A DNA stretch of 64,000 nt from Candidatus Sericytochromatia bacterium (lineage in GTDB: Bacteria > Cyanobacteriota > Sericytochromatia > S15B-MN24 > JAQBPE01). Positions 1-64,000 of this stretch are shown here, piece after piece. Within the stretch, counting starts at the first letter, position 1. Each line of letters begins with the position of its first letter. Location: NCBI GenBank assembly GCA_040400605.1, contig JBBAPZ010000003.1:170577-234576 (forward strand). The letters are read 5' to 3'. The position numbers and the translations under genes were made by a program. Under the pieces are notes generated by a model, which ran no database searches, was not told where the DNA came from, and worked only from the letters and a program-made list of their open reading frames with translations.

Positions 1-1527
1 CCGGGTGCGGCGTTCGAACCAGTCCCGCAAGGCGTATGCCGATTCATGTCGCACGGAATAAACCAGCTCCGCCGGATAAACAGGAATGAAAGAACCACCA
101 AAGGGCTTGGCCCAGTCTGGATTTTCGTTGAGAATGTCACGTAATTGTGCAAAGTTGGTCCCATAACGATTGGCCAGAACGCGAACCGTTTCAAGGGGCA
201 GGGTCCGGGTCTCGCGCTCGCATTCCTGAACGAAGGCATCGAATGGGCGGCCGCCCAATTCGCTGCCTGAAATTGGCGCCGTTTCGATACGGGAAGGCGG
301 GGCTTTGCGATCGCCAAGAATCCGCTCAATGGCTTGACAGGCCATTGTCCGGTACCCTGTCAGCTTCCCGCCAGCAATCACAAAAAATCCACTCAGCGGC
401 TCAAACACAACGTGCTCCCGCGACACCTGTGACGCTCCCAAGCCTGCCTGTGACGGCGCGATGAGCGGTCGCCAACCAGCGAAACGACCAATCACATCCT
501 GAGAGGTCAGCTGGCTGTTCAGAACCTGGTTCGCCGCATCCAGCACATAGGCTTCTTCCGCCTCGCTCACGGTGACATCCTCATCAAGATAGTGAAAATC
601 CCCGCTGGGTCCATCGTAATCCGTATCCGTCGTGCCGATGATCGTGCGCCCGCCCCAAGGAATCACGAACATCACCCGGGGTTCACGCTCCGACGGCGAG
701 CACGAACGCATGACGATGGCCTGTTCGGTGAGTTGACGATTCACAACCACATGGACGCCCTTGGTTGGACGCAAATGCAAAGGCGCGTCTGGCAACACCA
801 GACGAGTAACGGCGTCCACCCAAGGACCAGCAGCGTTGATCACCTTGCGCGCACGCAACGTTTTTTCTGCACCTGCAAGATGATCCCAAACACGAACATG
901 CAACAAGCCGCTGGCCCCCGGCCGTGTCACCCCCAACACCTCCACATAGTTAAACGCGCTCGCATTGCAAGCCACCGCTGACTTCAAGGTCTCAATCACC
1001 AAGCGCGCATCATCCGTAATGCCATCACAATAGGCAAATACCCCTGATAACCGCTCCGCGCGCAATGCTGGCGCTGCCGTGATGGCTGCTTGCCGATTCA
1101 ACCAGCGATGAATTCCCGACCGGCCCCGCGAAGCGAAATTGGCCAGACAATCATACAAAGTGAGCCCCACATTGACGACCCAACCGCGATCATATCCGCC
1201 CCGCACAATCGGGAAAAAATAAGTCAGACGCCTGGCGACATGCGCCGCATCCTCAAACAGGCGATCGCGTTGGGCCAACGACTCAAACACCAGCCTGAAC
1301 TGCCCCTGCTCCAAGTAACGCACCCCACCGTGCAACAACTTCGAACTTTTCGAACTCGCGCCTGACGCAAAGTCATTCTTTTCAAGCAGCATCACACGCA
1401 ATCCGCGCATCGCGCCTTCCCACGCAATACCTGCTCCGACAATGCCGCCACCGATGATCACCAAATCGTAATCAATTCCACAAACACCATCATCCAACTG
1501 TTTTCGCTCGAACATCACATCAGCCAT
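1..1527 (-). CDS. glpD: FAD-dependent glycerol-3-phosphate dehydrogenase/oxidase (3' end runs off the window)
   Basis: Not in the ORF track. Manual translation from ATG 1527 gives MADVMFERKQL..YDLVIIGGGIVGAGIAWEGAMRGLRVMLLEKNDFASGASSKSSKLLHGGVRYLEQ, the typical GlpD N-terminus; later ..IIGTTD.. motif. Confidence 0.9.
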   Translation of the reverse strand, partial: MADVMFERKQLDDGVCGIDYDLVIIGGGIVGAGIAWEGAMRGLRVMLLEKNDFASGASSKSSKLLHGGVRYLEQGQFRLVFESLAQRDRLFEDAAHVARRLTYFFPIVRGGYDRGWVVNVGLTLYDCLANFASRGRSGIHRWLNRQAAITAAPALRAERLSGVFAYCDGITDDARLVIETLKSAVACNASAFNYVEVLGVTRPGASGLLHVRVWDHLAGAEKTLRARKVINAAGPWVDAVTRLVLPDAPLHLRPTKGVHVVVNRQLTEQAIVMRSCSPSEREPRVMFVIPWGGRTIIGTTDTDYDGPSGDFHYLDEDVTVSEAEEAYVLDAANQVLNSQLTSQDVIGRFAGWRPLIAPSQAGLGASQVSREHVVFEPLSGFFVIAGGKLTGYRTMACQAIERILGDRKAPPSRIETAPISGSELGGRPFDAFVQECERETRTLPLETVRVLANRYGTNFAQLRDILNENPDWAKPFGGSFIPVYPAELVYSVRHESAYALRDWFERRTR

Positions 1528-1852
1528 ATCCCTATGTTACCTGATGAAGGTCCCTTCGCACCCCTCTCGGTAAAGCAAAAACCAGGAATCAACAACCGTT
1601 CCCCAAACCGCTTGAGCGTTTCCAAAAGCACGGGATCGCTTAAGACAAGAAATCCGCTCAATCAAGTCACTGCCTTATCAATCGCAAGCAGTTGCGCCAG
1701 GAAACCATCAGTTTCGGTTGTCAGACGAAGTACACGCAAACACACATCAAATGCGCGTCTCAAACGCTTCCCGCCTTGATCGCACATCACACTGGCGTCT
1801 CAACGTGAGGCGCAACCATTCCGCTTAAAACAAGCCAGTCGTTCCACCCATG

Positions 1853-1889
1853 ATCGATCGAGATCATCTCAGCCATGATCTCGATCGAT
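1853..1889. repeat. Perfect 15-bp inverted repeat with 7-nt loop, GATC-rich
   Basis: ATCGATCGAGATCAT (1853-1867) / ATGATCTCGATCGAT (1875-1889). Confidence 0.85.
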
Positions 1890-2322
1890 GACACCAGATG
1901 ACTCGTTACATCGCTTAACATTTTGACACTGACTCGACTCAGGCGTTCCGTGATAGAGGTGCGTAAAATCACATCCTGGTGCGTATCAGCCTCAAATGCA
2001 CCGACGGGTCAACCACTCCCGTTTGATGTCAAGTCTTGACCGCGTGCGACATAACACGCTTGATCGGTCTTTCGACACAATGTTAACTTCAACAAGGCAA
2101 CGTTTGGATTGGGGTGGCCCACGCAGTCGGCGCCAGTCACATCAAGGATGATGGACACTCGCGATTGTTCGGACGCAAGTTCAAAACCGATCGCGACTAA
2201 AAAAAATCAATCCGGTTTACGGTGCTTGGCAAAACGTTTTGAAACAGGGCCACCCGCCTGGTGGGTCTGAATCAAGACACGGTTGGGACTCAGGAACCCA
2301 GGTCTTTAAAAAACGTATAGAC

Positions 2323-2353
2323 AAAAAAAAGCGGCCGCCAGGCTGACGGCCAC
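2323..2353 (-). terminator. Rho-independent terminator
   Basis: Minus strand GTGGCCGTCA-GCC-TGGCGGCCGC (10-bp stem with two G-U pairs) followed by T8. Confidence 0.8.
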
Positions 2354-2368
2354 CTCTCAATAGGTCAA
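2323..2368 (-). ncRNA. Putative small counter-transcribed (antisense) RNA, ~45 nt
   Basis: Lies between a minus-strand sigma70 promoter (2374-2402) and a hairpin plus U8 terminator; no ORF; antisense to the leader of the HTH gene. Confidence 0.55.
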
Positions 2369-2373
2369 TTTTG

Positions 2374-2402
2374 AGTGTAGCACGCCTGGCAACCGCTGAC
2401 AA
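2374..2402 (-). promoter_or_regulatory. sigma70-type promoter
   Basis: -35 TTGTCA (2402-2397), 17-nt spacer, extended TGc plus -10 TACACT (2379-2374). Confidence 0.7.
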
Positions 2403-2447
2403 GGGGTTGCGTTCATTTTTTGAAGCAGCCCGTAGAAAGTGCTGCTT

Positions 2448-3182
2448 ATGTTCTCACTGTTTGATGCGCTGTCTGAAGCGCGTAATTTGGGTTGGAATCT
2501 CTCGACGATGTTGGTTAAAGCATATGTAGATGAACGGGGTATGCATCCAGTGGGATTGATTGCGGATGCGTGCGCGTTGTCTGTTCGAACGGTTGAACGG
2601 GCATTGGCAGTGTTGAAACAGGCGTCGTTGTCAGAAAAATCGGTTTTGACAACTTTGTCGCATGAACATGACAAACATAACAAAATTAATAAAAGCACCA
2701 CGACAGAGATGGCGTGCGCGACACATCCTGACAAGGCAGGTTTGTCGGCTACTTGGGCAACGGACCCATTGGCTGAGCGCTTGCTTGCGTGTGAGGTGTT
2801 GCCGTGGTGTGTGGAAATCATTATGACGCGGGTGCAACGGGAGGTGATTGAGCGTCAGCTTGATGCGCACGCATGGCGTTTGAAAACCGGTTATCCTTTT
2901 AAGTCGCATCCGGCGCGTTTTTTATTTCGCGCGTGTTTGAACGATTATGCGTTGCCCGATGTTCGTACCGCGGTTGCCAGCGAGCCTCAAGCGCGCGCCT
3001 TACCTGAACCAGCGCCTGCGATTGGTGCGACGATGACGCGGGAGGGTGCCTTGAATGTCATTCGGATGGGGTTGCGTTCGCGCTTGCCCGTGATGCGTGA
3101 AGAAGCGTTGCGGCTTGCGCGGTCGTGGGACATTGATGTGTCACTGTTGCGCGGTGCGGCGTTGACGGGTGCGCTGGCTTAG
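2448..3182 (+). CDS. HTH protein resembling a plasmid/phage replication initiator
   Basis: HTH IADACALSVRTVERALAVLK, low-complexity linker HEHDKHNKINKSTTT, helical C-terminal domain ending HPARFLFRACLNDY. ORF track start is GTG 2439; ATG 2448 is preferred. Confidence 0.55.
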   Translation: MFSLFDALSEARNLGWNLSTMLVKAYVDERGMHPVGLIADACALSVRTVERALAVLKQASLSEKSVLTTLSHEHDKHNKINKSTTTEMACATHPDKAGLSATWATDPLAERLLACEVLPWCVEIIMTRVQREVIERQLDAHAWRLKTGYPFKSHPARFLFRACLNDYALPDVRTAVASEPQARALPEPAPAIGATMTREGALNVIRMGLRSRLPVMREEALRLARSWDIDVSLLRGAALTGALA

Positions 3183-3407
3183 ACTCATATCGCCGGGTGA
3201 TTTGGCCGTAACCACGGTGTTTGAACCGGCAGCGAGTGTCCGTCCCTGAACTGCTCGCAGTGCTTTGATAGCCTTGAGCATGCGGCAACGCGTGGTTTGG
3301 TGATTGGCTGTTGGGCTGGCGCCGGGTCTCGGCACGCGTTTTCCTGATGTTTTGCAGCCAATGCAAACCTTTTGAACGGAAACCGATGCGTCACCGGATA
3401 ACGCTTG

Positions 3408-4085
3408 TCACGTGGTAGGGCTGTTGGTCTGCTTGGATTGCGTGCACAGATGGGGGGATTGTCGTTGCAGGGCGGCTGGGGCGAGTTGGATTAGGCGATC
3501 GACGACATCGTCAAGCACGTGGTTGTGGTCGGTGATGTGATTGAGGCTTGTCATGACCGTGGCGTCTAGCCCACAGGGGTTAAGCATGCGAAAGGCTTGC
3601 AAGTCTGTTGAGACGTTGAGCGCGAGACCGTGATACGTGACCCAGTGGCTGACCGCGATGCCCACCGAAGCGATTTTGGATGAACCAACCCACACGCCGG
3701 TCAGTTGGGGGTGCCGGTGCGCGGTAATCGCATAGGTGTCAAGCAACGTGATGAGCCAGCCTTCCAGGCGTCGCAGATACGCATGCAGGTCCCGTTCGTG
3801 CGTTTGGAGGCGCAAGAGTGGGTAAGCCACAATTTGTCCGGGACCGTGGTAGGTTGCATCGCCGCCGCGTTCGATAGCCTGAACGGGTACGTTGCATGAC
3901 CCATGGACATTCGTATTGGCGTTTTTCTTACGGCCCAGGGTGATGATGGGATCGTGTTCAACGACCAGTAGGGTATCGGGGGCGAGGCCATCTCTGATGG
4001 CGATTAACAAATCGCGTTGGCGTTGCCAGGTGACGCCATGGGGTTCGCGGCCGAGCCATTGGATGTCAAGTGGTGCGGTAGGCAA
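3408..4085 (-). CDS. lipB: Lipoyl(octanoyl) transferase
   Basis: VEHDPIITLG, RGGDATYHGPGQIVAYP, KIASVGI, HGLALN, PCG motifs; TTG start at 4085 with GGAGG RBS. Confidence 0.93.
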   Translation of the reverse strand: MPTAPLDIQWLGREPHGVTWQRQRDLLIAIRDGLAPDTLLVVEHDPIITLGRKKNANTNVHGSCNVPVQAIERGGDATYHGPGQIVAYPLLRLQTHERDLHAYLRRLEGWLITLLDTYAITAHRHPQLTGVWVGSSKIASVGIAVSHWVTYHGLALNVSTDLQAFRMLNPCGLDATVMTSLNHITDHNHVLDDVVDRLIQLAPAALQRQSPHLCTQSKQTNSPTT

Positions 4086-4233
4086 ATGGGGCTTCCTCCG
4101 GGAAGTGTAACGGATAGCAGATTTTAGCATTCCTGGCTGACTGATTTGCCAATCCTGATGGAACGGGGGTACGATGAAAGCTGATTCCGTTGGGCTCATC
4201 GATAGATGAGTGTCGTAGGTGGGGAGCTGATTT

Positions 4234-7047
4234 GTGAACGCTGACACCAGTTCTTTGTATGCGGGCAACGCGGCCTTTGTTGAGGCCTTGTATGAGACGT
4301 ATTTGTTGGATCCCCAAGCCGTAGATGGCGTTTGGCGGCAATATTTCGATACCTTGCGTGCGGGTCAGTCTGGGCCGGAAGTGCCGCATGCGCCGATCCA
4401 GGCTGCATTCGTGGCCCAAGGCCGTGCGGTGGGTGTACGGCGGGACGGGGGGGGGGCACGTCCAAACTTTGGTTCGTTATTCGACGCTTACCGTAGCGAT
4501 GGTCATCAGGTGGCGCGAATCAGCCCGTTGTCGTTGCGGCAGGCGGTTGCGGTGCCGGAGTTGGAGTTGGGGCATCATGGCTTGAGTGAGCGTGACTTGG
4601 TGCAGGCCGTTGACGATTCGCGCAGTCGGGATTTGGGGACAACCGCGAAGGAGGCAGTGGCGAATGCGCGGCGCATTTATTGTGACAGTGTTGGTTACGA
4701 ATACATGCATTTGCCGCGCGTCGAGCGCGAGTGGTTGCGCGAGCGGATTGAGCGGTCGGGCGGGCGGGCGGTGTTGACGTCTGGACAGCAACGGCGGATT
4801 TATGAAAAGTTGGTGGCGGCGGAGGGGTTGGAGCGTTATCTGCATCAGCGTTATGTGGGGCAAAAGCGCTTTTCGCTGGAGGGTGGCGACACCTTGATTC
4901 CTGTTTTGGATCACCTGTTCGATCGTGCCGGGGTGCAGGGCGTTCAAGAGATTGTGATGGGGATGGCTCATCGGGGTCGCCTCAATGTGTTGATCAATGT
5001 CATGGGCAAGCCGAGCGGCGAATTGTTTGAGGAGTTTGAAGGCAGGAAGGTTTATCCGGAGGAGTTGGCCGGGGATGTCAAATACCACTTGGGCTTTTCA
5101 TCCGATGTTGAGACTGCCGGTGGGCCCGTTCATCTGTCGTTGGGTTTTAATCCGTCGCATTTGGAGCTGATCAATCCTGTCGTCGAGGGGTCTGTGCGCG
5201 CGCGTCAGGACAGGCGGGAGGATACGCAACGCGTGAAGGTGCTTCCTGTGCTGATTCATGGTGATGCGGCGGTAATTGGTCAAGGCGTCGTGACTGAGAC
5301 CTTGAATCTGTCGCAGTTGCGTGGCTATGCCACCGGCGGTTCGATTCATATCGTTATCAACAATCAGGTGGGTTTCAGTATCAGTGATCCGCAAGATGCC
5401 CGTTCGAGTCGGTATTGTACGGACGTGGCCAAGATGGTTGAAGCGCCTGTTTTTCATGTGAACGGGGATGATCCGGAGGCAGCCATTTTTGTGACTGAGT
5501 TGGCTTTGGCGTATCGCCAGACTTTTCACAAGGATGTATTCGTGGATCTGGTGTGTTTCAGACGCCATGGCCACAATGAGTCGGATGAACCGCGTGCCAC
5601 ACAGCCTGGCATGTATCGTCAAATTGATGCCCACCCGGGGGTTTGCGCGCGCTATGGTGGGCAACTGCAGGCACTCGGGGTGCTGACGCCTGCGGATGTT
5701 GCTGCGATTGCCAGCGCTTACCGTGATGCATTGGATGCGGGTAAGGTGGTTGCTGCTGCGAAAGAGACTGTGGGGCGAATGAACAGAGGGGTGGACTGGG
5801 AGCCGTTTTTGAGCCTTGATTGGCGTCCCCCGGCTCACAGTGCCGTATCTGTTGCACGTCTGCAGGATTTGGGCCGTGCGCTGACCAGCTTGCCCGATGA
5901 TTTGGTTCTGCATCCCCGTGTGGCGAGTGTCATCAAGGCACGGCGGGAGATGGTTGCGGGTGGTGCGTCTATTGATTGGGGTTTTGCTGAGAATTTGGCT
6001 TATGCTTCTTTGTTGACTACTGGTTTCCCGGTTCGTATCAGCGGGCAAGACAGTGGCCGGGGTACATTTTTTCATCGGCACGCGGTGTTGCATGACCAAC
6101 GGGAGAATGATTTGCCTGAGGGGCGTTGTTATGTACCATTGAGGCACTTGGCTGAAGGGCAGGCGCGTTTTGAGGTGATTGATTCGGCGTTGTCGGAAGA
6201 AGCGGTATTGGGTTTTGAGTATGGATATACCAGCAACGAACCGAATGCCTTGGTGATTTGGGAAGCGCAGTATGGGGACTTCGCCAATGGTGCGCAGGCG
6301 GTGATCGATCAATTCATCAGTGCGGGCGAATCGAAATGGCGTCGCTTGTCGGCGCTTGTCATGATGTTGCCTCACGGTTATGAGGGGCAGGGGCCCGAAC
6401 ACTCATCAGCGCGCCTTGAGCGTTTCTTGCAGTTGTGTGCGGAGCAGAACATGCAGGTGTGTGTTCCGAGCACACCGGCACAAATGTTTCATCTGTTGCG
6501 GCGTCAATTGTTGCGTCCGGCGCGGAAACCGTTGGTTGTCATGAGCCCGAAGAGCATGCTGCGGCATCGACTGTCGGTGTCGACGTTGGAGGAGTTGGCG
6601 TCAGGGGGATTTGATGAATTGATCCCCGAGTCTCGGGCAATCGAGGGTATGACGCGTGTCGTTTTGTGCAGTGGGAAACTTTATTACGACTTGTATGAAG
6701 CGCGCGACAAGCATGGTTTGGCCAATGTCGCATTGGTGAGATTGGAGCAGTTGTATCCTTTCCCGTCGGGCGCTTTGACCCGGGAGCTTGCGCGTTTTCC
6801 AAAGGCGGAGGTGGTTTGGGCGCAGGAAGAGCCCCATAATCAGGGGGCCTGGCTGTCAATCCAGGAGGATCTGCGGGCCTGCCTGGGTGCGGGACAAACC
6901 TTGTTGCCTGCGACGCGTCCACGTGCTGCGTCGCCCGCCGTTGGTTATGCCAGCAAGCATGCGGTGCAGCAGCAAGCGTTGATTCAGGGCGCGTTGGGAT
7001 TGGTGCCTGTTCTGGCTGCCACTGCAGTGTCTGCGGCGGCGACTTGA
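4234..7047 (+). CDS. sucA: 2-oxoglutarate dehydrogenase E1
   Basis: [61 protein letters not shown]. Confidence 0.97.
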
Positions 7048-7078
7048 ACCGGGTTTAGGATGCGGCATTTACGTAGGA

Positions 7079-8263
7079 GTGGCCATGATCGTTGAAGTCA
7101 AGGTTCCCGTTTTTTCGGAGTCAGTCAGTGAAGGCACCTTGCTTGCCTGGGCCAAGCCATTGGGTGCGCGTGTCGAACGGGGTGACAAGCTGATTGATAT
7201 TGAAACCGATAAGGTGGTGCTAGAAGTTTTTGCCCCGCAGTCCGGTGTTTTGACGGCGTTGATGAAACAGGAAGGGGATGTGGTCACGGCGGAAGAGGTT
7301 TTGGCCGCGATCGATACGGCGGCTGCGGCCGAACCGGTGGTTGCCGCGGCGGTTGGTCAAACCGAGGCATCGGCGACGGAGGCCTCAGCTGGTGTTTTGG
7401 AACGGTCGGGTCCGGCGGTGCGTAAGTTGCAGGCGCAGACGGGAGTCAATCTGGAGCAGGTGCCGGCGACCGGCAAGGATGGTCGGGCAACCAAAGGGGA
7501 TGTTTTGGCACATCTGAATACGCCGGCGCCGGTTGAAGCGGTGGCACCGGTTGTATCGGGTGTTCGCCCGTCCAAGCGCGTTCCGATGACCCGTATTCGT
7601 GCGCGGATTGCGGAGCGTTTGAAGGAAGCACAGAACACGGCGGCATTGTTGACGACCTACAATGAAGTTAACATGCGGTCAGTGATGGCGTTGCGCAAGC
7701 AGTATCAGGATGCGTTCACCAAAAAGCACGGCATCAAGCTCGGGTTTATGAGCTTTTTTGTCAAGGCTGCGGTCGAGGCGTTGAAGCAGTATCCCGTATT
7801 GAATGCGTCGGTGGATGGCAAAGACATCATTTACCACGGTTTTTATGATATCGGGATTGCAGTGGCGAGTGAGCGCGGGTTGGTGGTGCCGATTGTGCGG
7901 GATGCGGATCAGCTATCCCTTGCGCAAATCGAGAAGGCGATCGCCGGTTATGCTGCCAAGGCCCGGGACAACAAGCTGACCTTGGATGACATGGCGGGCG
8001 GAACTTTCTCCATCACCAATGGTGGAACATTCGGCTCGATGCTTTCCACCCCCATCTTGAACCAGCCGCAAAGCGCGATTCTTGGCATGCACAACATCGT
8101 GGAGCGCCCTATCGTTGAAAATGGTCAGATTGTGGCGGCACCTGTGATGTATTTGGCGCTTTCTTATGATCACCGCATCATTGATGGTCGAGAAGCGGTG
8201 CTGTTTTTGGTCAGCATTAAAAATGCTTTGGAGGATCCGGCGCGGATGCTTTTGGATATCTGA
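7079..8263 (+). CDS. sucB: Dihydrolipoyllysine succinyltransferase E2
   Basis: Lipoyl domain ETDKV, E3-binding [12 protein letters not shown], catalytic SYDHRIIDG. Confidence 0.97.
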
Positions 8264-8360
8264 CCCAGATTGGCTTTCGGGTAGCCGGCAACCGGCTGCC
8301 CATTCCGCTTGAACTTGATGAATGGGCCCGTGATGACATTCGCGAGTCTTGAATGAGGCA

Positions 8361-9776: not shown

Positions 9777-10312
9777 TAATTGCGCATCCGATTGCCTGTT
9801 CGTTCATCAAACGGTGCTTTCGCAGCAGTCGGTGGGAGCAAACAGGACTGCCTGGTTGTTGTTATAACGTCGCGCATCGGTTGCTGTTCAAAACTGTTTC
9901 GCAGTGTCAAAACATCAGGCATTCTCGCGCTATTAGGCAACATCACTCAACGTTTGATCACCAATCAACGCTTTTCGATATGACATTATCACCCGGCTTC
10001 AACAGTCAATCTGCGGGTTCTTGTGATTGCCCCAATGGAGTCGTTAATTTACACCGTTCGTCGGGTAAGCTAGGTCAAGCAGAGCAACCTTGCAAATTTT
10101 ACAACGCATCGGATTCAACGACGCTGAAGAGGAACGTGAATGATTTGCCCCTTGATGAGTTATGCTGCCAATTTGGTGGAGTGTCAGCGTGAAAAATGTG
10201 CCGTGTGGGATAAGCGCGAAGAGGCTTGTGGCTTGGTGTCGGTTGGCGCACGGGTGCAGGACGGTTTGAGCGATCTAGTGATGACCTTAAACGAGATCAA
10301 GGTCAAATTCTG

Positions 10313-55011: not shown

Positions 55012-55080
55012 ACGCTCCCACTCTCCGCCTTCTTGCACGTTCGCCATGACGCACGACTGTCGCTGCCCCAAGACGACGCT

Positions 55081-56487
55081 TCAGAATAGTACGGGAGGAT
55101 GCTTTGTTTTGTCAAATCTCAAAAAGGCGGACGCCCACATTTCATAAGGGTTTTCGGGCGTTTGCGCTGGCTGTTCGATGAGTGCTTCGGCTGAACGTCC
55201 GACCCCTACCACCCAATAAATATCGCTTTGATGTGCCAAGACGAGCAGTCCTGTTTGTCTTGGCTGAGGAATGCCTGCCTGCTTGAGCCACCCCCGCAGA
55301 CTGCGTACCCGTTGGTGCCCGTACGGTTTGATGCGGTCAGACTCAGGCCTTGCCGAGCGCCATACCAGTTCTTTGGGGAGTCTGCTGCCATCAAAACGCA
55401 CCCGACAGGCGTGTAGTGGCTTGTCTGACAGGGCTGAAGCGACAAAAACCGACCACCCCCACGACTGTGTTGGTTGCCAACCAGTGCGGGTGAAGGCACG
55501 GGGAATCTGCTCGGGCAACGCGACCGTGAGATACAGGTCTGCGTTTGCCCGGCAGAGGCGTGCCCCTCTTGGCCATTCGCAGCACCAATGCTTCAGGGGT
55601 GTCGCGAGTGCTTTTAAACTCCGTGAGATGGTCGCACCATCGACGCTTCCGTAACCCAATTCACGGGCAAACGCGCGCAACAACCGCTGTTGGCTGGCCG
55701 TCGGCTCCTGAAAAAATGCCAAGCCGTCAATGTCGAGGCATCCCGGTGCCACCTGTTCGGTCCAGGTGCGACACCATTTTTCTTCGAGCGATCGCCAGAG
55801 CAAAACTTCATCTTGGACCATATCCGCAAATCTTGCCAGATTTTGGGACGCGTTTGGCGCGATGTGTGCCAGTTCCGGCATAACCTTGTGTCGGATGCGG
55901 TTGCGCCGATAAGCCAAATCAACGTTGCTGGGGTCGTCAAGGTGCGCAAGCGCCAACTCCTGTGCGACGGCTTCCAGTTCGCCACGCGTAGACGTCAGAA
56001 GTGGTCGTATGATGGTCGCATCCTTGAGCCATTCTGTCTGCGGCCAGATCCCGCACGCGCCATCGAGGCCCGCACCCCGCGCCAGCCGAAACAGAACGGT
56101 TTCGGCCTGATCGTTCAGGTGATGACCGGTGGCAACACGCCTCAAACCAAGCCCGGCAGCACACGCCTGTAAAAAACGGTAACGCTCGGCACGGGCTGCC
56201 GCCTCACTCCCGCGTGTTTCAGGCGTTGCGACACCAATGGATAACGAGATGCCGGCTTGCTGACACCACCTGGCAAGCCATTCGGCTTCCGATGCTGATT
56301 CAGTTCGCCAACGGTGATCAAAATGCGCCGCGTGAACCGGATGACCCAAGTGGGACAAGACCTGCAACAACACCATCGAATCAAGGCCACCAGACAGGGC
56401 GATCAACACCGGCTCAGCCGGCATCAGCATACGCTCACCAAGCATGAAATGTGCCACTTGTGCGCACAAGTCGCTAAAACGCGTCAC
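55081..56487 (-). CDS. tilS: tRNA(Ile)-lysidine synthase
   Basis: PP-loop SGGLDS, HHLNDQAET, IRPLL, RNRIRH; directly upstream of ftsH. Confidence 0.95.
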   Translation of the reverse strand: MTRFSDLCAQVAHFMLGERMLMPAEPVLIALSGGLDSMVLLQVLSHLGHPVHAAHFDHRWRTESASEAEWLARWCQQAGISLSIGVATPETRGSEAAARAERYRFLQACAAGLGLRRVATGHHLNDQAETVLFRLARGAGLDGACGIWPQTEWLKDATIIRPLLTSTRGELEAVAQELALAHLDDPSNVDLAYRRNRIRHKVMPELAHIAPNASQNLARFADMVQDEVLLWRSLEEKWCRTWTEQVAPGCLDIDGLAFFQEPTASQQRLLRAFARELGYGSVDGATISRSLKALATPLKHWCCEWPRGARLCRANADLYLTVALPEQIPRAFTRTGWQPTQSWGWSVFVASALSDKPLHACRVRFDGSRLPKELVWRSARPESDRIKPYGHQRVRSLRGWLKQAGIPQPRQTGLLVLAHQSDIYWVVGVGRSAEALIEQPAQTPENPYEMWASAFLRFDKTKHPPVLF

Positions 56488-56615
56488 GCCATCGCTCCAG
56501 TTTTCATTATCGTTAATCGCGATTTAATCTGAACCCCAGGATCCTGGACGCAAGGTTAACACCACTCGCGCTATAACCACGATATCATCTCTCATTAACA
56601 CGCTGCTAAAATACT

Positions 56616-58397
56616 TTGCTTGTAAGGAGCTTTGGCATGGGCAAGAGTCGGGGTTTTTCAGGTTCAAAGAACCCCTTGCGAGGCGTACGCCGCTCGATGG
56701 GTGGCTTGGCGCTTGGTTTTACGCTTTTGCTGGATGTCGGTTGTGGGACGGTTGGGTGGCTAGGCGGTCAGTCGCGCGCAACGGGTGGCTTGGAAACTTC
56801 TGCGATCAAGCGAGGCATTCCGGTCACGCCGGGTGTGCCGAAGCTTGGGCAACAGCCGGGTTTGCCGCGTGATCCCGGTATGGATGGCGACGTATCGTTT
56901 CATTTGCTTTATACAAATGATATTCATTCGCGTGTGGACCCTTTTCCGGCTGGTTACTACCATAACTTTTACGCAGGCAAGGGCGGTTTTGCGCGATTGA
57001 CGACAGCGATCGCAGATTTTAAGCGGGCCAATCCGAACACGTTGGCCGTGGACTCCGGTGATTATTTGCAAGGCACGCCGTATTTCAACTTTTTTCGGGG
57101 TGAGACCGAGTTAAAGTTGATGCAGGCGTCGGGTTTTGATGCCATTACCATTGGTAATCATGAGTTTGACAATGGCGTGGCTGATCTCGCCCGTGTGTTG
57201 CCCTATTACCGTGGCAGTCTTGTGACCACCAATATGACTTTTGAGCCAGAGGTTGCGGCGCGGTATTGCGTGAAGCGGGTTGGCAATGTCAGGGTGGGTA
57301 TTTTTGCGCTCATTACCGATGTGAATGGGTTGGTTGCGGCGCCTAATTTCAAGGGCGCACGTTATTACGACCCGGTGCTGGTCGCCAAGGCAGCCGTTGC
57401 CAAATTGCGCAAAGAGGCTGACGCGGTGGTTCTGTTGTCGCATATGGGCATCACGCCGCCGTGGGCCGAAGCAGAGCCGGATGATGACCACGAAGTCGCG
57501 GATGATCAACTCACGGATGAAAAACTCGCCGCACGGGTTCCCGGCATCGATGTCATCGTTTCCGGTCACACGCACGTGATGATCAAGCGGCCGATTGTCG
57601 TGAAGAATACCACTGGTCGCACCTACATCGTTTCGTCAGGAATGGGCGGGGGCTACCTCGGGCAGGCCACTGTTCGGATGCGTAAAGGCCAGGTCAGTTT
57701 TGTGCAGAACGACATGATCCCGATGACCGCATCCGTGACGGCTGCACCGGCGATCGAGTCGATGATCGCGCCTTATCGGGATGTTTTGTCACGCACCATT
57801 AAGCCGGTGATTGGTGAAGCCACGGCGACTTTCAAGCGTTATGGCAAAGCGGATCGCGAATCTGCCCTCAATAATTTGATCGCCGATTCCACCTTGGCGG
57901 CTGCGCGCAGCGTCAAACCGGAAACCGCCTTTGCGGTGATGAGCAGTGGTACCCCGCGAAACCCCATTCCCCAAGGTCCCATTCGCATTGAAGATGTGTA
58001 CTATGCCTTGCCGTTCGACAATAAAGTGGTTCTGATGGAGGTAACTGGCAAACAAGCGGTCGAGATGTTGGGCATCCAACGGCGAAGCTCGGACCAGAAG
58101 CGCCACGCAATCAGCAATTGTTCGTACACACTGCTGCGTAACGCCGGGCCGATCAAAGACGTGCTGATCAGCGGCCAGCCAGTCAACCCGGATGCCAGGT
58201 ACTGGGTTGCCGTCAACGACTACATGGCTGACGGGGCATCCGGCTTCACCATGCTGCCCGGTTCACCACGCATCGACACCAAGATTTTGCAGCGTGATGC
58301 GTTGATTGAATTGATCAAGTCGCGCAAGACAATCACTCCCCAAGTCGGGCGCATCCGAATTGAAAGTCAAGCACCAGTCCTTGCGACGGCCAGTTAA
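56616..58397 (+). CDS. Bifunctional metallophosphatase/5'-nucleotidase
   Basis: TNDIHS, DSGDYLQG, GNHEFD, SHMG, GHTH and C-terminal LPFDN..VNDYMADG. Start uncertain. Confidence 0.93.
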   Translation: MLVRSFGMGKSRGFSGSKNPLRGVRRSMGGLALGFTLLLDVGCGTVGWLGGQSRATGGLETSAIKRGIPVTPGVPKLGQQPGLPRDPGMDGDVSFHLLYTNDIHSRVDPFPAGYYHNFYAGKGGFARLTTAIADFKRANPNTLAVDSGDYLQGTPYFNFFRGETELKLMQASGFDAITIGNHEFDNGVADLARVLPYYRGSLVTTNMTFEPEVAARYCVKRVGNVRVGIFALITDVNGLVAAPNFKGARYYDPVLVAKAAVAKLRKEADAVVLLSHMGITPPWAEAEPDDDHEVADDQLTDEKLAARVPGIDVIVSGHTHVMIKRPIVVKNTTGRTYIVSSGMGGGYLGQATVRMRKGQVSFVQNDMIPMTASVTAAPAIESMIAPYRDVLSRTIKPVIGEATATFKRYGKADRESALNNLIADSTLAAARSVKPETAFAVMSSGTPRNPIPQGPIRIEDVYYALPFDNKVVLMEVTGKQAVEMLGIQRRSSDQKRHAISNCSYTLLRNAGPIKDVLISGQPVNPDARYWVAVNDYMADGASGFTMLPGSPRIDTKILQRDALIELIKSRKTITPQVGRIRIESQAPVLATAS

Positions 58398-58443
58398 ACG
58401 GTGAGCGCAAGGTAGATTGATACTGGCACGCACGCCTTGGCAG

Positions 58444-59955
58444 TCAGACGGAGAGTTTGTCCAGTTGGTGTAGCGCGTGACGCGCGATGTCGCGATCATC
58501 GAAGTGCACGGTGCGATCCGCAAACGTCTGGGTCGTCTCGTGGCCTTTACCCGCAATCACGATCAAATCACCGGATTGCGCCAGTTCAATCGCTTTTTTA
58601 ATCGCTTCCGCCCGATCGACCACGACGAGTTGCTGCCCACGCATCCCCAAGCCGATTTCATTGATGATGGCCATTGGGTCCTCAGAACGCGGATTGTCTG
58701 ACGTCACGATTGCAACATCCGACCAGTGTTCAACCACCTCACCCATCAACGGACGCTTGGTACGGTCGCGATCACCCCCACATCCAAACACCGTGACGAG
58801 CCGCCGTGGACCCAATTCGCGTGCTGCAGACAAAACGTTGTGCAAACCATCGGGCGTGTGAGCATAATCGACCCACACCGTGAAAGGATGGTGCGCGCTA
58901 CTAACGACTTCAACACGCCCCGGCACACCAGCCGACTTTGCCACCATGTCACAGACCGTTGAAAACTCATAGCCCATGGCCAGCGCAGCACCCACCGCTG
59001 CAAGTGCATTGTACACATTGAAACGCCCAGGTAACGGCAAGTGCACCTTCCCGGATTGCCCCCTAAAATGTGCGACAAAAACAGAGCCGGACGCAGATGA
59101 TTCAAGCACTTCTGCCCGCAGGTCAGCCTCGGAGCCAGTCGCCAGGCCGTAGGTCAACAAACCCGATGTGACCAAATTGGCACACGCTTGCCCCAAGGCG
59201 TCATCCACGTTGATGACACTGGCACGCGGTCGATGGCCGGTCGCCTCCTGGCTGAATAACCGACGTTTCACCGCCCCGTAGGCCGCCATCGACCCATGAT
59301 AATCCAGATGGTCCCGACTCAAATTGGTGAAGATGGCCACGTCAAACTCGCAATCATACACACGCGCTTGATCAATGGCATGCGATGATACCTCCATCAC
59401 CACCGCTTGTGCCCCTTCATTCACCAACTGCCGCAGCACTTTTTGCAATTCCGGCGATTGAGGAGTCGTGAACCCCGTGACGATTTGATGCCCCTCAAAT
59501 TCAGCACCCAACGTTCCAACCAGACCCGCACGAACGCCCAAATTCACCAACAGTGTCCGCAACAGTGATGTCGTTGTCGTTTTACCATTGGTGCCGGTAA
59601 CGCCAACCAGTTTCAAGGTTTCAGACGGACGGTCAAACAAAGCCCCTGCCACCAGAGCCATTGCCACTCGCGTATCCGCCACAGGCAGACACGGCAAAGG
59701 CGCCGTTTGACCGAATTGCTGTGCCCATGTACGGCTCACCAACGCTGCCGTGGCACCACCCAGTGCTGCCTGGCCCAAAAACTGATGACCATCCACACGA
59801 GAACCCGGCAGGGCAACGAACAGATCACCACGCCTGGCCTGCCTGGCATCACAAACTACCCGCTGAATCACTTCACCAAGAATATCAGTGGCACGCTCCG
59901 CTTTGCCAATTGGCTGATCACCATCCAGCAAGCTCAGCACGTCTGACAAGCGCAT
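58444..59955 (-). CDS. murE: UDP-MurNAc-tripeptide (meso-DAP) ligase
   Basis: GVTGTNGKTT, MEVSSH, NLSRDHLDYH, DYAHTPD, DNPR (DAP type), AGKGHE. Confidence 0.97.
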   Translation of the reverse strand: MRLSDVLSLLDGDQPIGKAERATDILGEVIQRVVCDARQARRGDLFVALPGSRVDGHQFLGQAALGGATAALVSRTWAQQFGQTAPLPCLPVADTRVAMALVAGALFDRPSETLKLVGVTGTNGKTTTTSLLRTLLVNLGVRAGLVGTLGAEFEGHQIVTGFTTPQSPELQKVLRQLVNEGAQAVVMEVSSHAIDQARVYDCEFDVAIFTNLSRDHLDYHGSMAAYGAVKRRLFSQEATGHRPRASVINVDDALGQACANLVTSGLLTYGLATGSEADLRAEVLESSASGSVFVAHFRGQSGKVHLPLPGRFNVYNALAAVGAALAMGYEFSTVCDMVAKSAGVPGRVEVVSSAHHPFTVWVDYAHTPDGLHNVLSAARELGPRRLVTVFGCGGDRDRTKRPLMGEVVEHWSDVAIVTSDNPRSEDPMAIINEIGLGMRGQQLVVVDRAEAIKKAIELAQSGDLIVIAGKGHETTQTFADRTVHFDDRDIARHALHQLDKLSV

Positions 59956-60130
59956 CGCATTCCTCCACAGGTCCGGGACTCACCCCTCACGCCTGGATTT
60001 GAGAGGGTCACCCGACAAGGGTTCGGAACACAGTCAAAATCCGGAATCAGCCATTCAGCCTTGAACCGCGCCACAGCCGATTATATTGAATCAATGCCCA
60101 GCAACCGATGTCCGGTAACCCACTCAATAG

Positions 60131-60204
60131 TGGCACTGACTGGACTCGAACCAGTGACACCCCGGGTATGAACCGAGTGCTCTAACCAACTGAGCTACAG
60201 TGCC
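60131..60204 (-). tRNA. tRNA-Met (CAT), elongator type; CCA not encoded
   Basis: GGCACTGTAGCTCAGTTGGTTAGAGCACTCGGTTCATACCCGGGGTGTCACTGGTTCGAGTCCAGTCAGTGCCA folds into a cloverleaf; G1-C72 paired. Confidence 0.95.
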
Positions 60205-60348
60205 GAAAAGATGCTAGCCATTATAAGCGCGCGTGCGTTCGCCGTCAAACCCCAAGGCATCAGTCAGGCGTTATCCGTTTTCCTGAACCGTGTCTGGCAA
60301 GCAGATGAGACATTTCTTGATCGGCAAACACGGTTCATGCGTGACTTT

Positions 60349-60810
60349 CTAGCGCACGTGTCTATCATCCGAAACGTCGACGATTTGCCCGGTTGTTTGT
60401 AATCCCGCTCGTTCGTCGATCCTGTCGTCGTTTAATCTCTCGATTTCGCTTTCACCCTGTCGCTTAGCCGTCAACTCCTGCAAATCGTCCAACTCACGGG
60501 TATCTGCTTCTTGGGCGGCTTTGGTCTGCTCACGGCGCTGGCTCATCACGGCGTCTAAAGCCATGTTCTGACCCCGCAACCATTCAAGCGCATCCGCAAC
60601 CGCGTCTTTCAGTTCCTGCGCCAGGCCCGGAAATAAGGGCTCCTTTGCCGTTTTGATCGGTTCTGATTGACGTGCCATTGGTGACAACGACAATGAGTCA
60701 TTATCGAGGCGTACTTGGGGAGACCCGGAATCAACCTTGACTCGCACAGGATTCAAACCCGGCCCACGATACAGTTGCGCCGTCTGGATACTGTTCTCTG
60801 CGCCCGACAT
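60349..60810 (-). CDS. Hypothetical protein
   Basis: Open frame with GAGGA RBS; charged helical C-terminus. Confidence 0.65.
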   Translation of the reverse strand: MSGAENSIQTAQLYRGPGLNPVRVKVDSGSPQVRLDNDSLSLSPMARQSEPIKTAKEPLFPGLAQELKDAVADALEWLRGQNMALDAVMSQRREQTKAAQEADTRELDDLQELTAKRQGESEIERLNDDRIDERAGLQTTGQIVDVSDDRHVR

Positions 60811-61265
60811 TGTTTCATTCCTCATCGCTAGTGATTCACAACATACTTATCGTATGTTCAGCAAAAATCTGAACCGGGAACGCACGTCTTACCGGAATAG
60901 GTGTCAGGATTGGTGCGTCACGGGTTACGGACAAAGTAAGTGGGCGAGAAGCCTGATTGCATTGATTCGTTGGTTGATCACGCCGTGGAAGTCGCGAACT
61001 GATTATCATCCAAAAAATAAGGGTTGAACGTCGAATGTTGACTGGTCACGCTTGATCACTTAAGTGACCGTCTCTGCGTTTTTCAAGCGAAGCAATCCTT
61101 CGCTGATCCCGGCGCCCCCTAGAGATCGATGTTAGCGAGCAAGTCTTTGGGCTATCGATTGCTTGAGTTGACACACACGGTTGACTGGTATTGGCTGTCA
61201 GCAGGAGCCGTCTTGAGGTTCGTGCATTCGCAGCATCAGTTTTGGCCAAGCTTGTGCGTTACTTT

Positions 61266-61799
61266 TTATTCCGTCAGAAAGTCGGTACCCCCGGTCATAC
61301 CGGACTTGCCAGTAATATGTTTCAGTACGCTGAACAAGTTCCCAACAATGGTTTGCACCTGGTCGATTCGGGCGTCTAATGTCTCCCGTTCGGGATGTTC
61401 TGAGGGGAGTCTGTCGCGTTTTTTTTTCAGGCGACTCAACAGGTGTGCCTGGTATACGCGTTCGTCTGACACAACTTTGTACATGAACATCGGATCCATC
61501 ATGTCAGGAATCTTGTAATCGCCATTCATGAAGTCCGTGATCATCGCCAGGCGACGTGGTGACAGTTCTTTTTCCAACGCCAGATCCAGTTTCGGTCCAT
61601 CGAGGGATACCGGACCGGTTCCAGTCCCGTTTTTTGGTTCTTGGCCATGGTTGAAGCGGGTACGATCCTCATAAAGGGCCAGTTCCGGCGATGTCGGTGA
61701 CCGTTTTTTTACGACGGATGACTGGTCGTGCGATCGCCCCTGGCCCAAGGCTTCGCGCAACTTTTCCAGCAGACCTTTCTTCGCGCCTGAATCAGCCAC
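61266..61799 (-). CDS. Hypothetical protein
   Basis: 177-aa ORF with GGAGG RBS before GTG; helical C-terminal half. Confidence 0.7.
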   Translation of the reverse strand: MADSGAKKGLLEKLREALGQGRSHDQSSVVKKRSPTSPELALYEDRTRFNHGQEPKNGTGTGPVSLDGPKLDLALEKELSPRRLAMITDFMNGDYKIPDMMDPMFMYKVVSDERVYQAHLLSRLKKKRDRLPSEHPERETLDARIDQVQTIVGNLFSVLKHITGKSGMTGGTDFLTE

Positions 61800-62314: not shown

Positions 62315-62358
62315 AAGCCAGGACATACGCGGACATAGTCTGCGATATGGCCTGGCTT
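62315..62358. terminator. Long imperfect hairpin downstream of the LysM gene
   Basis: AAGCCAGG..CATA-CGCGGAC/GTCTGCG-A-TATG..CCTGGCTT. Confidence 0.5.
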
Positions 62359-62397
62359 CAAATTCGATAGTTCAGACTGAGGACACAATGAGCGCCC

Positions 62398-63288
62398 CTA
62401 TTGTAACTGCTGCGTCAACATGTTGAGCGCCTCAATTTTGCTGACAGCAGCGGCAATATCGACAGGCGAGGCATTTTCCCCGGTGCCGGGTTTATTCAAA
62501 ATCGCCCTCATCTGATTCACTCTTGCCTGGCCACGATCAAGTTTTTCGAGGACCTTATCAGCCAATACCGTCGCTTGAGACGGAATTGATAACGCTATTC
62601 CTGCAGTCAATAAGTCCGGGTTTGTTCCGATTGTTTTCTTGTTGTACTTATAAATAGATTGCCATTCAATTCCGTGTTCGCGTGCGATGACACTAAGATT
62701 ATCGCCTTTTTTCACGGTGTAAACTTTCCGTTGATCGTTCTTGACGGTTGGAGGCGTAGTCGGTTCAGAAATGATGTGACCTTTAGGGCCTCGTCTGGGC
62801 TCTGGGTTCGGCTTGGGTGCGGGGTCGGTGATATAGCGATGACCCTTTGGGCCTGTTGCAATGACTTTCCCCGGTGGAGCGACCAAAGGCTCTTGATGTG
62901 TCGAATGAGGTGACCCTTTGTCGTTCTTGACGGTTGGAGGCGTAGTCGGTTCAGAAATGATGTGACCTTTAGGGCCTCGTCTGGGCTCTGGGTTCGGCTT
63001 GGGTGCGGGGTCGGTGATATAGCGATGACCCTTTGGGCCTGTTGCAATGACTTTCCCCGGTGGAGCGACTAAAGGCACTCCCAGCGTTTGTTTCGATGGC
63101 TGCCTTCCTCCCGAATTAAGTTCAACTCTGTCACCACCGCGAGAGGATTTGTTACGTACAACCTTGGTGGGTGTTCCCTTCGCGGAAGGCACAGTCGCGG
63201 TCTCCAGTGGGCCTGCAGGTTGAGACTCACGCACAACCTTGGTAGGTGTTCCCTTTGCGGAAGGTACAGTCACTGTCTCAAAGCCCAT
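62398..63288 (-). CDS. LysM-domain protein with Pro/Lys-rich internal repeats
   Basis: YTVKKGDNLSVIAREHG..WQSIYKYN..NPDLL.AG.ALSIP; AGGAG RBS before ATG 63288. Confidence 0.88.
   Translation of the reverse strand: MGFETVTVPSAKGTPTKVVRESQPAGPLETATVPSAKGTPTKVVRNKSSRGGDRVELNSGGRQPSKQTLGVPLVAPPGKVIATGPKGHRYITDPAPKPNPEPRRGPKGHIISEPTTPPTVKNDKGSPHSTHQEPLVAPPGKVIATGPKGHRYITDPAPKPNPEPRRGPKGHIISEPTTPPTVKNDQRKVYTVKKGDNLSVIAREHGIEWQSIYKYNKKTIGTNPDLLTAGIALSIPSQATVLADKVLEKLDRGQARVNQMRAILNKPGTGENASPVDIAAAVSKIEALNMLTQQLQ
62735..63076. repeat. Two 156-bp direct repeats (186-bp period) inside the LysM gene
   Basis: 62735-62890 and 62921-63076, near-identical (one mismatch seen). Confidence 0.95.
63154..63279. 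repeat. Two 51-bp diverged direct repeats (75-bp period) inside the LysM gene
   Basis: 63154-63204 and 63229-63279 encode ET(A/V)TVPSAKGTPTKVVR. Confidence 0.9.
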
Positions 63289-63806
63289 CGTATGCACTCC
63301 TATAATTGTTGTGTGTGGGTTGTAGGACTCACCCAGTAATTCTCTTATACCCTCAACTGGCAGATAACTTACGGAAAACATCAGGTTTTTTGATATTCAG
63401 TTTCGGTAATGTGCGCCAAGTGTTAATTAATTGGCAAGTTTGCATGGCGGCGTTTTCAAGCAAAACGTCGAATTGTACGCGGTTGTGTGTGAAAAAGTCT
63501 TGGAATCGGCCGGTTTCTCGATTGGACGAGAGATCTTGTGTCTGACTGCGTTGGCTACCTCTTTCAGGATCTCGCAGGATTACCCATTTTGGCCTACTCA
63601 TGCTTGATCAAACTCGGAATTGTGTTTCGTTATCACAGTATTTGAACCGGCTGAGACGGGCCGCCGATATGCTGAACAGCGTTTTGCGATAGCGTTGTCT
63701 GTCGCATATACAGCGTCGCGATCGTCGGACTAGTGTTCGCCAGCTTTAGTCATCGGTGAATACAATGCGCAGACTCCGATTTTGAACCTGCCAACGATAG
63801 GTGCAG

Positions 63807-63836
63807 AAAAAAGGGCTCAGGAATCCCCCTGAGCCC
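63807..63836 (-). terminator. Rho-independent terminator of tuf
   Basis: GGGCTCAGG/CCTGAGCCC stem followed by T6 on the minus strand. Confidence 0.85.
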
Positions 63837-63866
63837 CCCAGCAAGACATAAATATGGTCGGTTGTT

Positions 63867-64000
63867 TTACGCCTGAATGGCAGCTACGACGCCTGCGCCC
63901 ACGGTACGACCACCTTCGCGGATCGCAAAGCGCATACCCGGCTCGATCGCCACTGGCGTGATCAACTCAACTTCCATCTGGATGTTGTCGCCAGGCATCA
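63867..64000 (-). CDS. tuf: Elongation factor Tu, 3' end (partial)
   Basis: [43 protein letters not shown]. Confidence 0.97.

What the first reader, a model, noticed from the sequence alone, without database searches (positions are those of the whole stretch)
1..64000. Saw-tooth G/C strand skew that flips every ~4-12 kb, independent of coding strand and even inside genes
Seen by eye: the + strand switches fairly abruptly from C/A-rich to G/T-rich near about 2.3, 13, 16.3, 28.3, 35.4, 46.3, 50.3 and 56.6 kb, all intergenic, then drifts back to C/A-rich. Hand counts in selected 60-mers: 3481-3540 G23:C10 although lipB is on the minus strand; 24421-24480 G12:C23 although that gene is on the plus strand; 31261-31320 G24:C11 versus 33301-33360 G7:C20 within the same SMC gene; 46021-46080 G12:C26 versus 46801-46860 G23:C11 across two co-oriented minus-strand genes. 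Established: bacterial skew normally changes sign only at origin and terminus or follows gene strand. Inference: a strand-asymmetric process starts at many dispersed sites (multiple or stochastic replication starts, R-loop priming, or promoter-centred mutagenesis/repair). The 60-mers were hand-picked, so this needs a proper computation.
Basis: partly seen in the sequence, partly recalled or inferred. Interest (0 to 1): 0.75.

Follow-up and report, generated by a model that had tools for sequence, protein, structure and literature searches.

The report
Transcription- and HIP1-linked strand skew
In this uncultured, non-photosynthetic relative of cyanobacteria, the lopsided G/T-versus-C/A make-up of the two DNA strands mostly follows the direction of transcription and runs on for kilobases past strong genes, and it also flips at the long-unexplained palindrome HIP1, which gives a testable handle on what HIP1 does.

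Summary
The saw-tooth is real and genome-wide: 1-kb keto-skew SD is 0.112 against at most 0.038 in shuffles, all six hand counts are exact, and up-steps are sharper than down-steps. It is not independent of coding strand. Gene strand explains 37-52% of the variance, and 119 of 179 large up-jumps sit between divergent genes.

Two further layers remain at silent sites. (1) A G/T excess starts at highly expressed genes and tRNAs and runs downstream only, about 6 kb, also through oppositely oriented genes; upstream it is zero. This argues against bidirectional origins and fits transcription-coupled mutation or repair in a Rho-less genome. Transcript-primed one-way replication is the main rival. 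(2) Skew flips G/T to C/A at HIP1 (GCGATCGC; 1,554 sites; -0.12±0.005, fading over ~1 kb) and weakly at other GATC sites. Half-sites act on one side only. The genome has Dam and MutL, but no MutH or C5 methylase was found.

The HIP1 flip recurs in 8 of 9 HIP1-rich cyanobacteria, not at E. coli GATC. This scan noted it before in other cyanobacterial DNA; I found it in no paper. About half of the raw variance stays unexplained.

The parts
1528..2447 (.). Divergent intergenic region; strongest up-step (0.36 at ~2375)
2448..9776 (+). Long + strand G/T field: ORF 2448-3182, lipB (minus strand, 3408-4085, coding-strand residual -0.46) and sucA-sucB-lpd (+0.33, +0.22, +0.20)
12647..13278 (.). Divergent intergenic region; weak up-step (0.11)
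15423..16766 (.). Gap between two + genes; skew flips inside the non-coding DNA near 16075 (0.12); HIP1 sites at 15178 and 15554 precede it
23842..24789 (+). Thioredoxin-reductase-like gene with counter-strand skew (residual -0.35, 3' half -0.49), convergent with and downstream of recA (25158-26240, minus)
28135..28391 (.). Divergent intergenic region; up-step 0.22
30658..33393 (+). SMC-like gene; synonymous field falls from +0.35 to -0.49 across two HIP1 sites and toward a convergent end
31907..31914 (.). HIP1 (GCGATCGC) at the start of the in-gene flip
32422..32429 (.). HIP1 at the main in-gene flip
34862..35726 (.). Divergent intergenic region before rpsA; up-step 0.20
35727..42625 (+). + strand field from rpsA (+0.23) continuing into the minus-strand genes 39535-40527 and 40538-42625 (coding residual -0.18, -0.17); HIP1 pair at 42372 and 42525 near its end
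46120..46702 (.). Gap between two minus-strand genes with an AT-rich core; up-step 0.22 at ~46175; the gene on the right has 3'-half residual -0.49
50139..50432 (.). Divergent intergenic region; up-step 0.29
56446..56696 (.). Divergent intergenic region; up-step 0.16
307..61737 (.). 25 HIP1 sites starting at 307, 1261, 7937, 9027, 11115, 13883, 15178, 15554, 18775, 27371, 29298, 31907, 32422, 36261, 36914, 39823, 42372, 42525, 45418, 52738, 53549, 54368, 55788, 57006, 61730; 18 of 25 are more G/T-rich on the left than on the right

Best explanation
The saw-tooth is the sum of two strand-asymmetric mutation or repair processes on a weak, patchy regional skew. (1) Kilobase scale: the strand identical to the RNA gains G and T and loses C and A, in proportion to transcription. 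Divergent promoters give the abrupt up-steps. Read-through from strong genes, and antisense transcription out of AT-rich gaps, oppose the bias at 3' ends and in convergent neighbours, which gives the slow decline and the 'wrong-way' genes. The genome has no Rho. Shown: polarity, one-way downstream spread, operon coupling. Inferred: that the moving machine is RNA polymerase, and the chemistry (non-template deamination or template-favouring repair). (2) 0.1-1 kb scale: a process anchored at Dam-type GATC sites, strongest at (G)CGATCNC and hence on both strands at HIP1, makes the DNA 3' of the site C/A-rich on that strand. Most likely the new, not yet methylated strand is nicked there and excised and resynthesised 5' to 3', removing G/T-type misinsertions or exposing the template. 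Shown: motif, one-sidedness, decay, additivity. Inferred: methylation, nick and repair.
For: 31 highly expressed loci (named from recalled motifs and N-termini): 25 of 28 scorable are positive inside; upstream field -0.001 to +0.012; downstream +0.174, +0.120, +0.109, +0.099 out to 6 kb, also in antisense genes; it persists to 6 kb after removing strand, GATC, promoter and contig terms. tRNA clusters: first kb downstream +0.155±0.047 in sense genes (n=18) and +0.208±0.048 in antisense genes (8 of 9 positive), background +0.03/+0.05, upstream -0.02. Coupling slopes: operon +0.70, tandem gap of 150 bp or more +0.23, convergent -0.44, divergent -0.04. The 3'-end drop grows with gap AT content and -10-like words (rho -0.14, -0.17). 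In ribosomal-protein genes T-ending codons rise for 7 of 8 pyrimidine pairs, against the usual translational preference (recalled). Rho not found in 8 of 8 family genomes. HIP1: -0.121±0.005 at 15-60 bp, n=1554, 13 control palindromes near zero; robust to promoter and contig terms and additive; present in all three frames; one-sided at half-sites; the most negative of 1,994 6-mers nearly all contain GATC or overlap HIP1. Dam and MutL present.
Against: Predicted intrinsic terminators do not cut the downstream field (slope -0.37±0.13 with, -0.42±0.05 without), and after the ribosomal-protein cluster it passes two terminator-like hairpins. Rho-less family members lack the kilobase pattern, so Rho loss is not sufficient, and no repair-gene loss unique to this genome was found. 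Convergent coupling is uneven: 0.00±0.14 on the first 200 kb of C1+C2, -0.69±0.09 on C3-C5. Protein conservation, a second expression proxy, correlates only weakly with the field (rho -0.06 to +0.37). The full model explains 52% of raw and 29% of synonymous signal, and HIP1/GATC adds almost nothing at 1 kb (variance 0.0003 of 0.0147). No MutH was found, so the nicking enzyme is hypothetical. No RNA or methylation data were available.
Confidence: 0.55

Rival explanations
1. Dispersed replication primed by, or co-directional with, transcription: one-way forks start at strongly transcribed loci, and the skew is ordinary leading-strand G/T excess weighted by fork direction.
For: Polarity matches the leading-strand keto rule (established knowledge). 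The field reaches 6 kb and ignores predicted terminators. The 40-kb regional field is unimodal around zero (-0.18 to +0.18, n=62), whereas family members G005 and G007 show a uniform replichore field (+0.11 to +0.15 over 188 kb). Gene order is scrambled in 10-30 kb blocks of both orientations. Multi-origin, DnaA-independent replication is known in the phylum (PMC7198777, passages).
Against: RNase HI is present. dnaA occurs in 5 of 7 family relatives, and its absence here is an assembly gap because dnaN, recF, lepA and yidC are missing too. Coupling stays high inside operons but drops across gaps of 200 bp or more (+0.68 to +0.23), which suits transcription units better than forks. Whole contigs keep a consistent field (C7 -0.13, C5 +0.10, C17 -0.18).
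Confidence: 0.25
2. The HIP1 footprint comes from recombination rather than mismatch repair: cutting or strand ends at HIP1 leave 3'-ended single strands (resection, or uptake of DNA) that mutate toward G/T.
For: Same geometry as observed. HIP1 raises transformation efficiency and was likened to a Chi-like hotspot (bioRxiv 2024.09.10.611283, passages).
Against: Ordinary GATC sites carry a weaker copy of the step in this genome (-0.03), which suits Dam-directed repair; in that preprint Dam methylation alone gave little benefit. Both C/T and A/G pairs shift equally (T 0.60 vs 0.48, G 0.60 vs 0.47), more than cytosine deamination alone would give (inference).
Confidence: 0.3
3. Selection on codons or mRNA composition, with no special mutational process.
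For: Gene strand is the largest single term, and the mean coding-strand fourfold skew (GC +0.09, TA +0.23) is close to E. coli's in a 200-kb sample (+0.13, +0.28).
Against: The field crosses into antisense genes and non-coding DNA, is not shared by orthologues in relatives (rho -0.29 to +0.01), and flips at a motif in all three reading frames.
Confidence: 0.1
4. Memory of an old replichore skew shuffled by inversions, or assembly joins.
For: The genome is heavily rearranged and rich in intergenic repeats.
Against: Rearranged blocks carry no memory of the relatives' replichore (0.000±0.014); steps are asymmetric and occur inside genes; contigs of an about 93%-identical relative in other runs are colinear across 1503-4956, 4942-12666 and 16505-19827.
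Confidence: 0.04

Closest known systems
Transcription-associated strand asymmetry of mammalian genes (PMC2927911, passages) and of E. coli (Francino and Ochman; Beletskii and Bhagwat; seen only as references)
   Same: Keto-direction excess on the non-template strand, extending past 3' ends, with an opposite bias upstream of some promoters.
   Different: Here it is in a compact bacterial genome, read at synonymous sites, and strong enough to dominate local composition (20-kb pieces: median SD 0.098 against at most 0.073 in 55 loci of other bacteria). Substitution rates were not measured.
HIP1 and Elhai's G-meC-directed mismatch-repair model (PMC4390886, passages)
   Same: HIP1 is the commonest octamer; Dam and MutL are present; a repair tract of up to about 1 kb from the site fits the decay.
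   Different: No C5 methylase found here or in G003, G007, G011, G013; the bare CGATCG core has the weakest step, and GTGATCGC, which has no CGATCG, gives a full one-sided effect. The passages read describe no flanking skew.
Dam/MutH methyl-directed mismatch repair of E. coli
   Same: GATC-anchored; Dam, MutS motif and MutL present.
   Different: No MutH. E. coli GATC sites show no step (-0.006±0.005, n=865). Here the effect is polar and depends on the flanks.
Irregular GC skew of multi-origin, DnaA-independent cyanobacteria (PMC7198777, passages) and saw-tooth N-domains of mammalian genomes (recalled)
   Same: No clean two-arm skew; abrupt rises in leading-strand polarity and slow declines.
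   Different: Sources here act downstream only and coincide with transcription; the scale is kilobases; replication was not measured.

Membership tests
Single-origin replichore skew | Uniform sign and size along each chromosome arm | tested here: not met
   40-kb field unimodal around zero; met in relatives G005 and G007
Single-origin replichore skew | dnaA-oriC locus | tested here: inconclusive
   dnaA, dnaN, recF, lepA and yidC all missing from the 94.6% complete assembly
Multiple bidirectional origins | Abrupt up-step in leading-strand polarity with gradual decline | tested here: met
Multiple bidirectional origins | Both flanks respond to the strength of the source | tested here: not met
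   upstream field about zero; divergent coupling -0.04±0.05
Multiple bidirectional origins | Initiation shown by marker frequency or nascent strands | not testable with these tools
   only assembled contigs were available
Transcription-associated strand asymmetry | Bias follows the non-template strand | tested here: met
Transcription-associated strand asymmetry | Scales with expression | tested here: inconclusive
   housekeeping loci and tRNAs as proxies agree; the conservation proxy is weak; no RNA data
Transcription-associated strand asymmetry | Extends past 3' ends in the direction of transcription | tested here: met
Transcription-associated strand asymmetry | Stops at terminators | tested here: not met
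   no effect of predicted hairpins, n=64 with; crude predictor
Transcription-associated strand asymmetry | Polarised substitution-rate asymmetry | not tested
   one search gave only unpolarised totals
Dam/MutH mismatch repair | Dam, MutS, MutL | tested here: met
   MutS by a recalled motif only
Dam/MutH mismatch repair | MutH | tested here: not met
   0 of 5 genomes; control rings in E. coli
HIP1 / G-meC model | HIP1 over-represented | tested here: met
   1,554 sites, 6.6-fold over a second-order model, against 35 and 58 in two cyanobacteria
HIP1 / G-meC model | CGATCG-specific C5 methylase | tested here: not met
   no PF00145 match; two uncharacterised N4/N6 methylases remain on main contigs and the assembly is incomplete
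HIP1 / G-meC model | Methylation state of the sites | not testable with these tools
   needs long-read methylome

The most novel reading that the evidence does not exclude
This lineage has given up a dominant single origin and launches one-way replication forks from strongly transcribed loci, while a Dam-dependent, MutH-independent nicking system that reads (G)CGATCNC and repairs 5' to 3' predates oxygenic cyanobacteria and is the origin and function of HIP1.
Probability: 0.2. Interest if true: 0.9.

Novelty: new variant of a known kind. Interest (0 to 1): 0.68.

Why it matters
HIP1's function has been open for three decades. A polar footprint with a definable half-site, in a non-photosynthetic class that has Dam but no detected C5 methylase or MutH, turns that question into direct assays (mismatch 5' or 3' of HIP1, with and without Dam, MutSL). 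It also suggests HIP1 enrichment is older than oxygenic cyanobacteria or arose twice. Separately, a bacterium whose strand composition follows transcription, including read-through, would let expression and antisense transcription be read from sequence alone. If the rival holds, it would be a bacterium replicating from transcript-primed starts.

Tried and rejected
dnaA loss as the cause: rejected as uninformative; the whole dnaA-dnaN region is unassembled.

Repair-gene loss: mfd, RNase HI, MutL, endonuclease V, HhH-GPD glycosylases and NusG are present. Only a weak uracil-glycosylase match was found (4e-8), but G005 has none and lacks the pattern.

Intergenic repeats as sources: gaps with and without repeats differ little (-0.118±0.021 vs -0.087±0.007 tandem; -0.084 vs -0.111 convergent).

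HIP1 as a barrier rather than a source: rejected; the step is 0.17-0.22 in all five far-field classes. HIP1 as the main cause of the kilobase saw-tooth: rejected.

RNA test: no RNA holder listed; this says nothing on expression. could not polarise substitutions. 5S rRNA is unassembled, so rRNA read-through was not tested. The metagenome scan returned only 100%-identical loci. The RecA scans did not name the organism; the loci were reused as controls. The additive regression returned NaN and was replaced. Orthology of the cyanobacterial C5 methylases was left open.
Full report
Setting. The window is the last 64 kb of contig C3 of G000, a 3.71-Mb assembly in 174 contigs, 94.6% complete, 4.9% contaminated. 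It lies in the cyanobacterial phylum but has no photosystem I (23 of 61 phylum genomes have PsaA/B, none in its class). The class name Sericytochromatia comes from earlier notes and agrees with an Atlas hit. Genes were called with my own self-trained model (3,070 genes); 36 window ORFs were checked against NCBIfam. 'Keto skew' is (G+T-C-A)/n. 'Residual' is keto at synonymous positions minus the mean for that amino acid on the coding strand, so gene strand and protein composition are removed.

Observation. All six counts are exact, and the eight named switches are steps of 0.11-0.36. Window SD is 0.112 against at most 0.038 in 200 shuffles. Genome-wide, GC and TA skew move together (r 0.65 at 1 kb). 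Up-steps are sharper than down-steps. The genome is unusual: five 200-kb samples give SD 0.105-0.118, against 0.044-0.067 in samples of 117-200 kb from eight class relatives; none of 55 loci of other bacteria (those of 15 kb or more among 80) reaches its median. It is not unique in the phylum: two of ten photosynthetic genomes sampled reach 0.088 and 0.116, but with little strand dependence.

Gene strand. Strand explains 37-52% of raw variance. Of 179 up-steps above 0.2, 119 are at divergent pairs, 42 at tandem gaps and 18 inside genes; of 130 down-steps, 61 are inside genes. Beyond strand, per-gene fourfold keto has SD 0.184 against 0.072 expected, and 22% of 2,081 genes run against the mean. 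Long genes decline from +0.056 to -0.086 along their length; relatives show no such gradient (-0.028 to +0.021).

Layer 1, direction of transcription. The residual is continuous across gene borders. A gene's level predicts its operon neighbour (+0.70), a convergent neighbour (-0.44±0.05, fading inward) and not a divergent one (-0.04±0.05). Around 31 highly expressed loci, named from recalled motifs and N-termini, the field is zero upstream and +0.17 to +0.10 for 6 kb downstream, also in antisense genes. Beyond 6 kb the excess vanishes once contig means are removed. The 36 tRNA/tmRNA clusters behave alike over 1 kb. After the ribosomal-protein cluster the residual rises from about +0.25 to +0.68 and stays positive through several antisense genes. 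Ends of transcription units drop by 0.10-0.12 and in-operon ends by 0.025, more so before AT-rich gaps. From low to high field, fourfold C falls from 0.42 to 0.22, and T and G at twofold sites both rise from 0.40 to 0.66. Rho was not found in any of 8 family genomes; loss of Rho causes read-through and cryptic transcription in other bacteria (PMC5540618, passages). Against this reading: predicted terminators have no effect, coupling is uneven between contigs and weakly present in relatives, and Rho-less relatives lack the amplitude.

Replication. Relatives G005 and G007 have a uniform replichore field; G000's gene order is broken into 10-30 kb blocks with no memory of it. Its 40-kb field is unimodal, though some contigs keep one sign. 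dnaA cannot be judged. RNase HI is present. Bidirectional origins are disfavoured; one-way transcript-primed forks remain possible (0.25).

Layer 2, HIP1 and GATC. HIP1 is the commonest octamer, 6.6-fold enriched. The residual is positive on its left and negative on its right: half-difference -0.121±0.005 at 15-60 bp, decaying from -0.155 to -0.012 by 1.7 kb. 73% of 1,537 scorable sites lean this way over all bases, against 49% of random points. The step is additive, holds in all three frames and in non-coding flanks. 46% of large down-steps have a HIP1 within 300 bp, against 24% of random points and 17% of up-steps; two sites mark the flip in the SMC-like gene. Half-sites are one-sided: G[AGT]GATCGC gives +0.111 on its 5' side and +0.002 on its 3' side; GCGATCG[AGT] gives +0.071 and +0.003; changing the central A or T abolishes the step; bare CGATCG gives 0.012. 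Non-palindromic words carry a compositional baseline of about 0.01-0.03. Read on the other strand, (G)CGATCNC makes its own 3' side C/A-rich. Other GATC sites give -0.03. HIP1 plus GATC add about 12 points to the explained synonymous signal but little at 1 kb.

Spread of layer 2. In 100-200 kb samples, 8 of 9 HIP1-rich photosynthetic genomes show the step at 12-100 bp (-0.060 to -0.108); in G056 and G076 it is confined to the first 100-200 bp, in G035 and G050 it extends past 2 kb, and G066 has none. Non-HIP1 GATC shows no first-bin step in them. GC-rich class relatives show -0.016 to -0.047. E. coli GATC shows none. No C5 methylase was found in G000, G003, G007, G011 or G013, nor at E 1e-40 in G062, which has the step, or G066, which lacks it. 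So C5 methylation of CGATCG does not look necessary; an m4C enzyme is not excluded.

Mechanism of layer 2 (inference). A nick in the strand bearing the half-site, followed by 5'-to-3' excision and resynthesis, gives this geometry. In repair-deficient E. coli both transition types are strand-biased in the keto direction (bioRxiv 346874, passages), so one-way repair would leave such a footprint. Resection or DNA uptake ending at HIP1 gives the same geometry and is the rival.

Prior work. I read passages, not whole texts or supplements, of PMC7198777, PMC3269016, PMC5861425, PMC13756078, PMC4390886, PMC2927911, PMC2031905, PMC5540618, bioRxiv 2024.09.10.611283 and 346874. 'Asymmetr' does not occur in the main text of PMC5861425 or PMC4390886, and 'skew' in PMC13756078 refers to sampling. 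'Sericytochromatia' with 'GC skew' returned 0 papers. The listings (20 of 105, 20 of 75, 15 of 102) showed no paper on skew around HIP1 or HIP1 in non-photosynthetic classes. Unread supplements and subscription journals may hold either. This scan had noted the HIP1 flip in five other cyanobacterial windows; I saw those notes. New here are the non-photosynthetic host, the GATC component, the half-site polarity and the transcription layer.

Verdict. The feature is real. What is there is a strong transcription-directed skew plus a HIP1/GATC-anchored polar footprint, with about half of the raw variance still unexplained. Novelty: new variant of a known kind. Interest 0.68.

Noticed in passing
G000 contig C20 (61,705 bp): No GATC at all and no HIP1; C24, C27 and C36 also lack HIP1, and C27 reads as phage-like. 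Probably phage or contaminant contigs; C20, C24 and C27 were left out of most models.
   Followed up: no
G003, G007, G011, G013 samples: HIP1 is enriched 5-7-fold in G007, G011 and G013 (1.7 in G003) with no C5 methylase found, so HIP1 enrichment reaches outside oxygenic cyanobacteria.
   Followed up: partly
class-wide search: Rho is found in 0 of 8 genomes of the own family and 1 of 8 of family f4, but in 7 of 10 of f3 and all 5 others, suggesting losses within the class.
   Followed up: no
G000 C3:65428-66207; G005: Only a weak uracil-glycosylase superfamily match in G000 and none in G005; both are about 56% GC while the other family samples are 64-74%.
   Followed up: partly
window 28392-33393: Three-gene + strand cluster whose first protein resembles MukF/MksB-type clusters and whose last is SMC-like; possibly a condensin-like or Wadjet-like operon (label inferred).
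   Followed up: no
G035 and G050 samples: Photosynthetic genomes with large strand-independent local skew and a HIP1 field extending past 2 kb; G035 has a reversed in-gene gradient.
   Followed up: partly
G066 sample: Very HIP1-rich (266 sites in 100 kb) yet no flanking step and no C5 methylase candidate; a natural negative control.
   Followed up: partly
G000 against G003, G005, G007: G003 and G007 share long gene order that G000 has scattered over many contigs in both orientations.
   Followed up: partly
G030 sample: A class relative with only 27% GC among genomes of 55-74%.
   Followed up: no
family relatives: Several carry two full-length RecA homologues, e.g. G001, G003, G005, G007.
   Followed up: no
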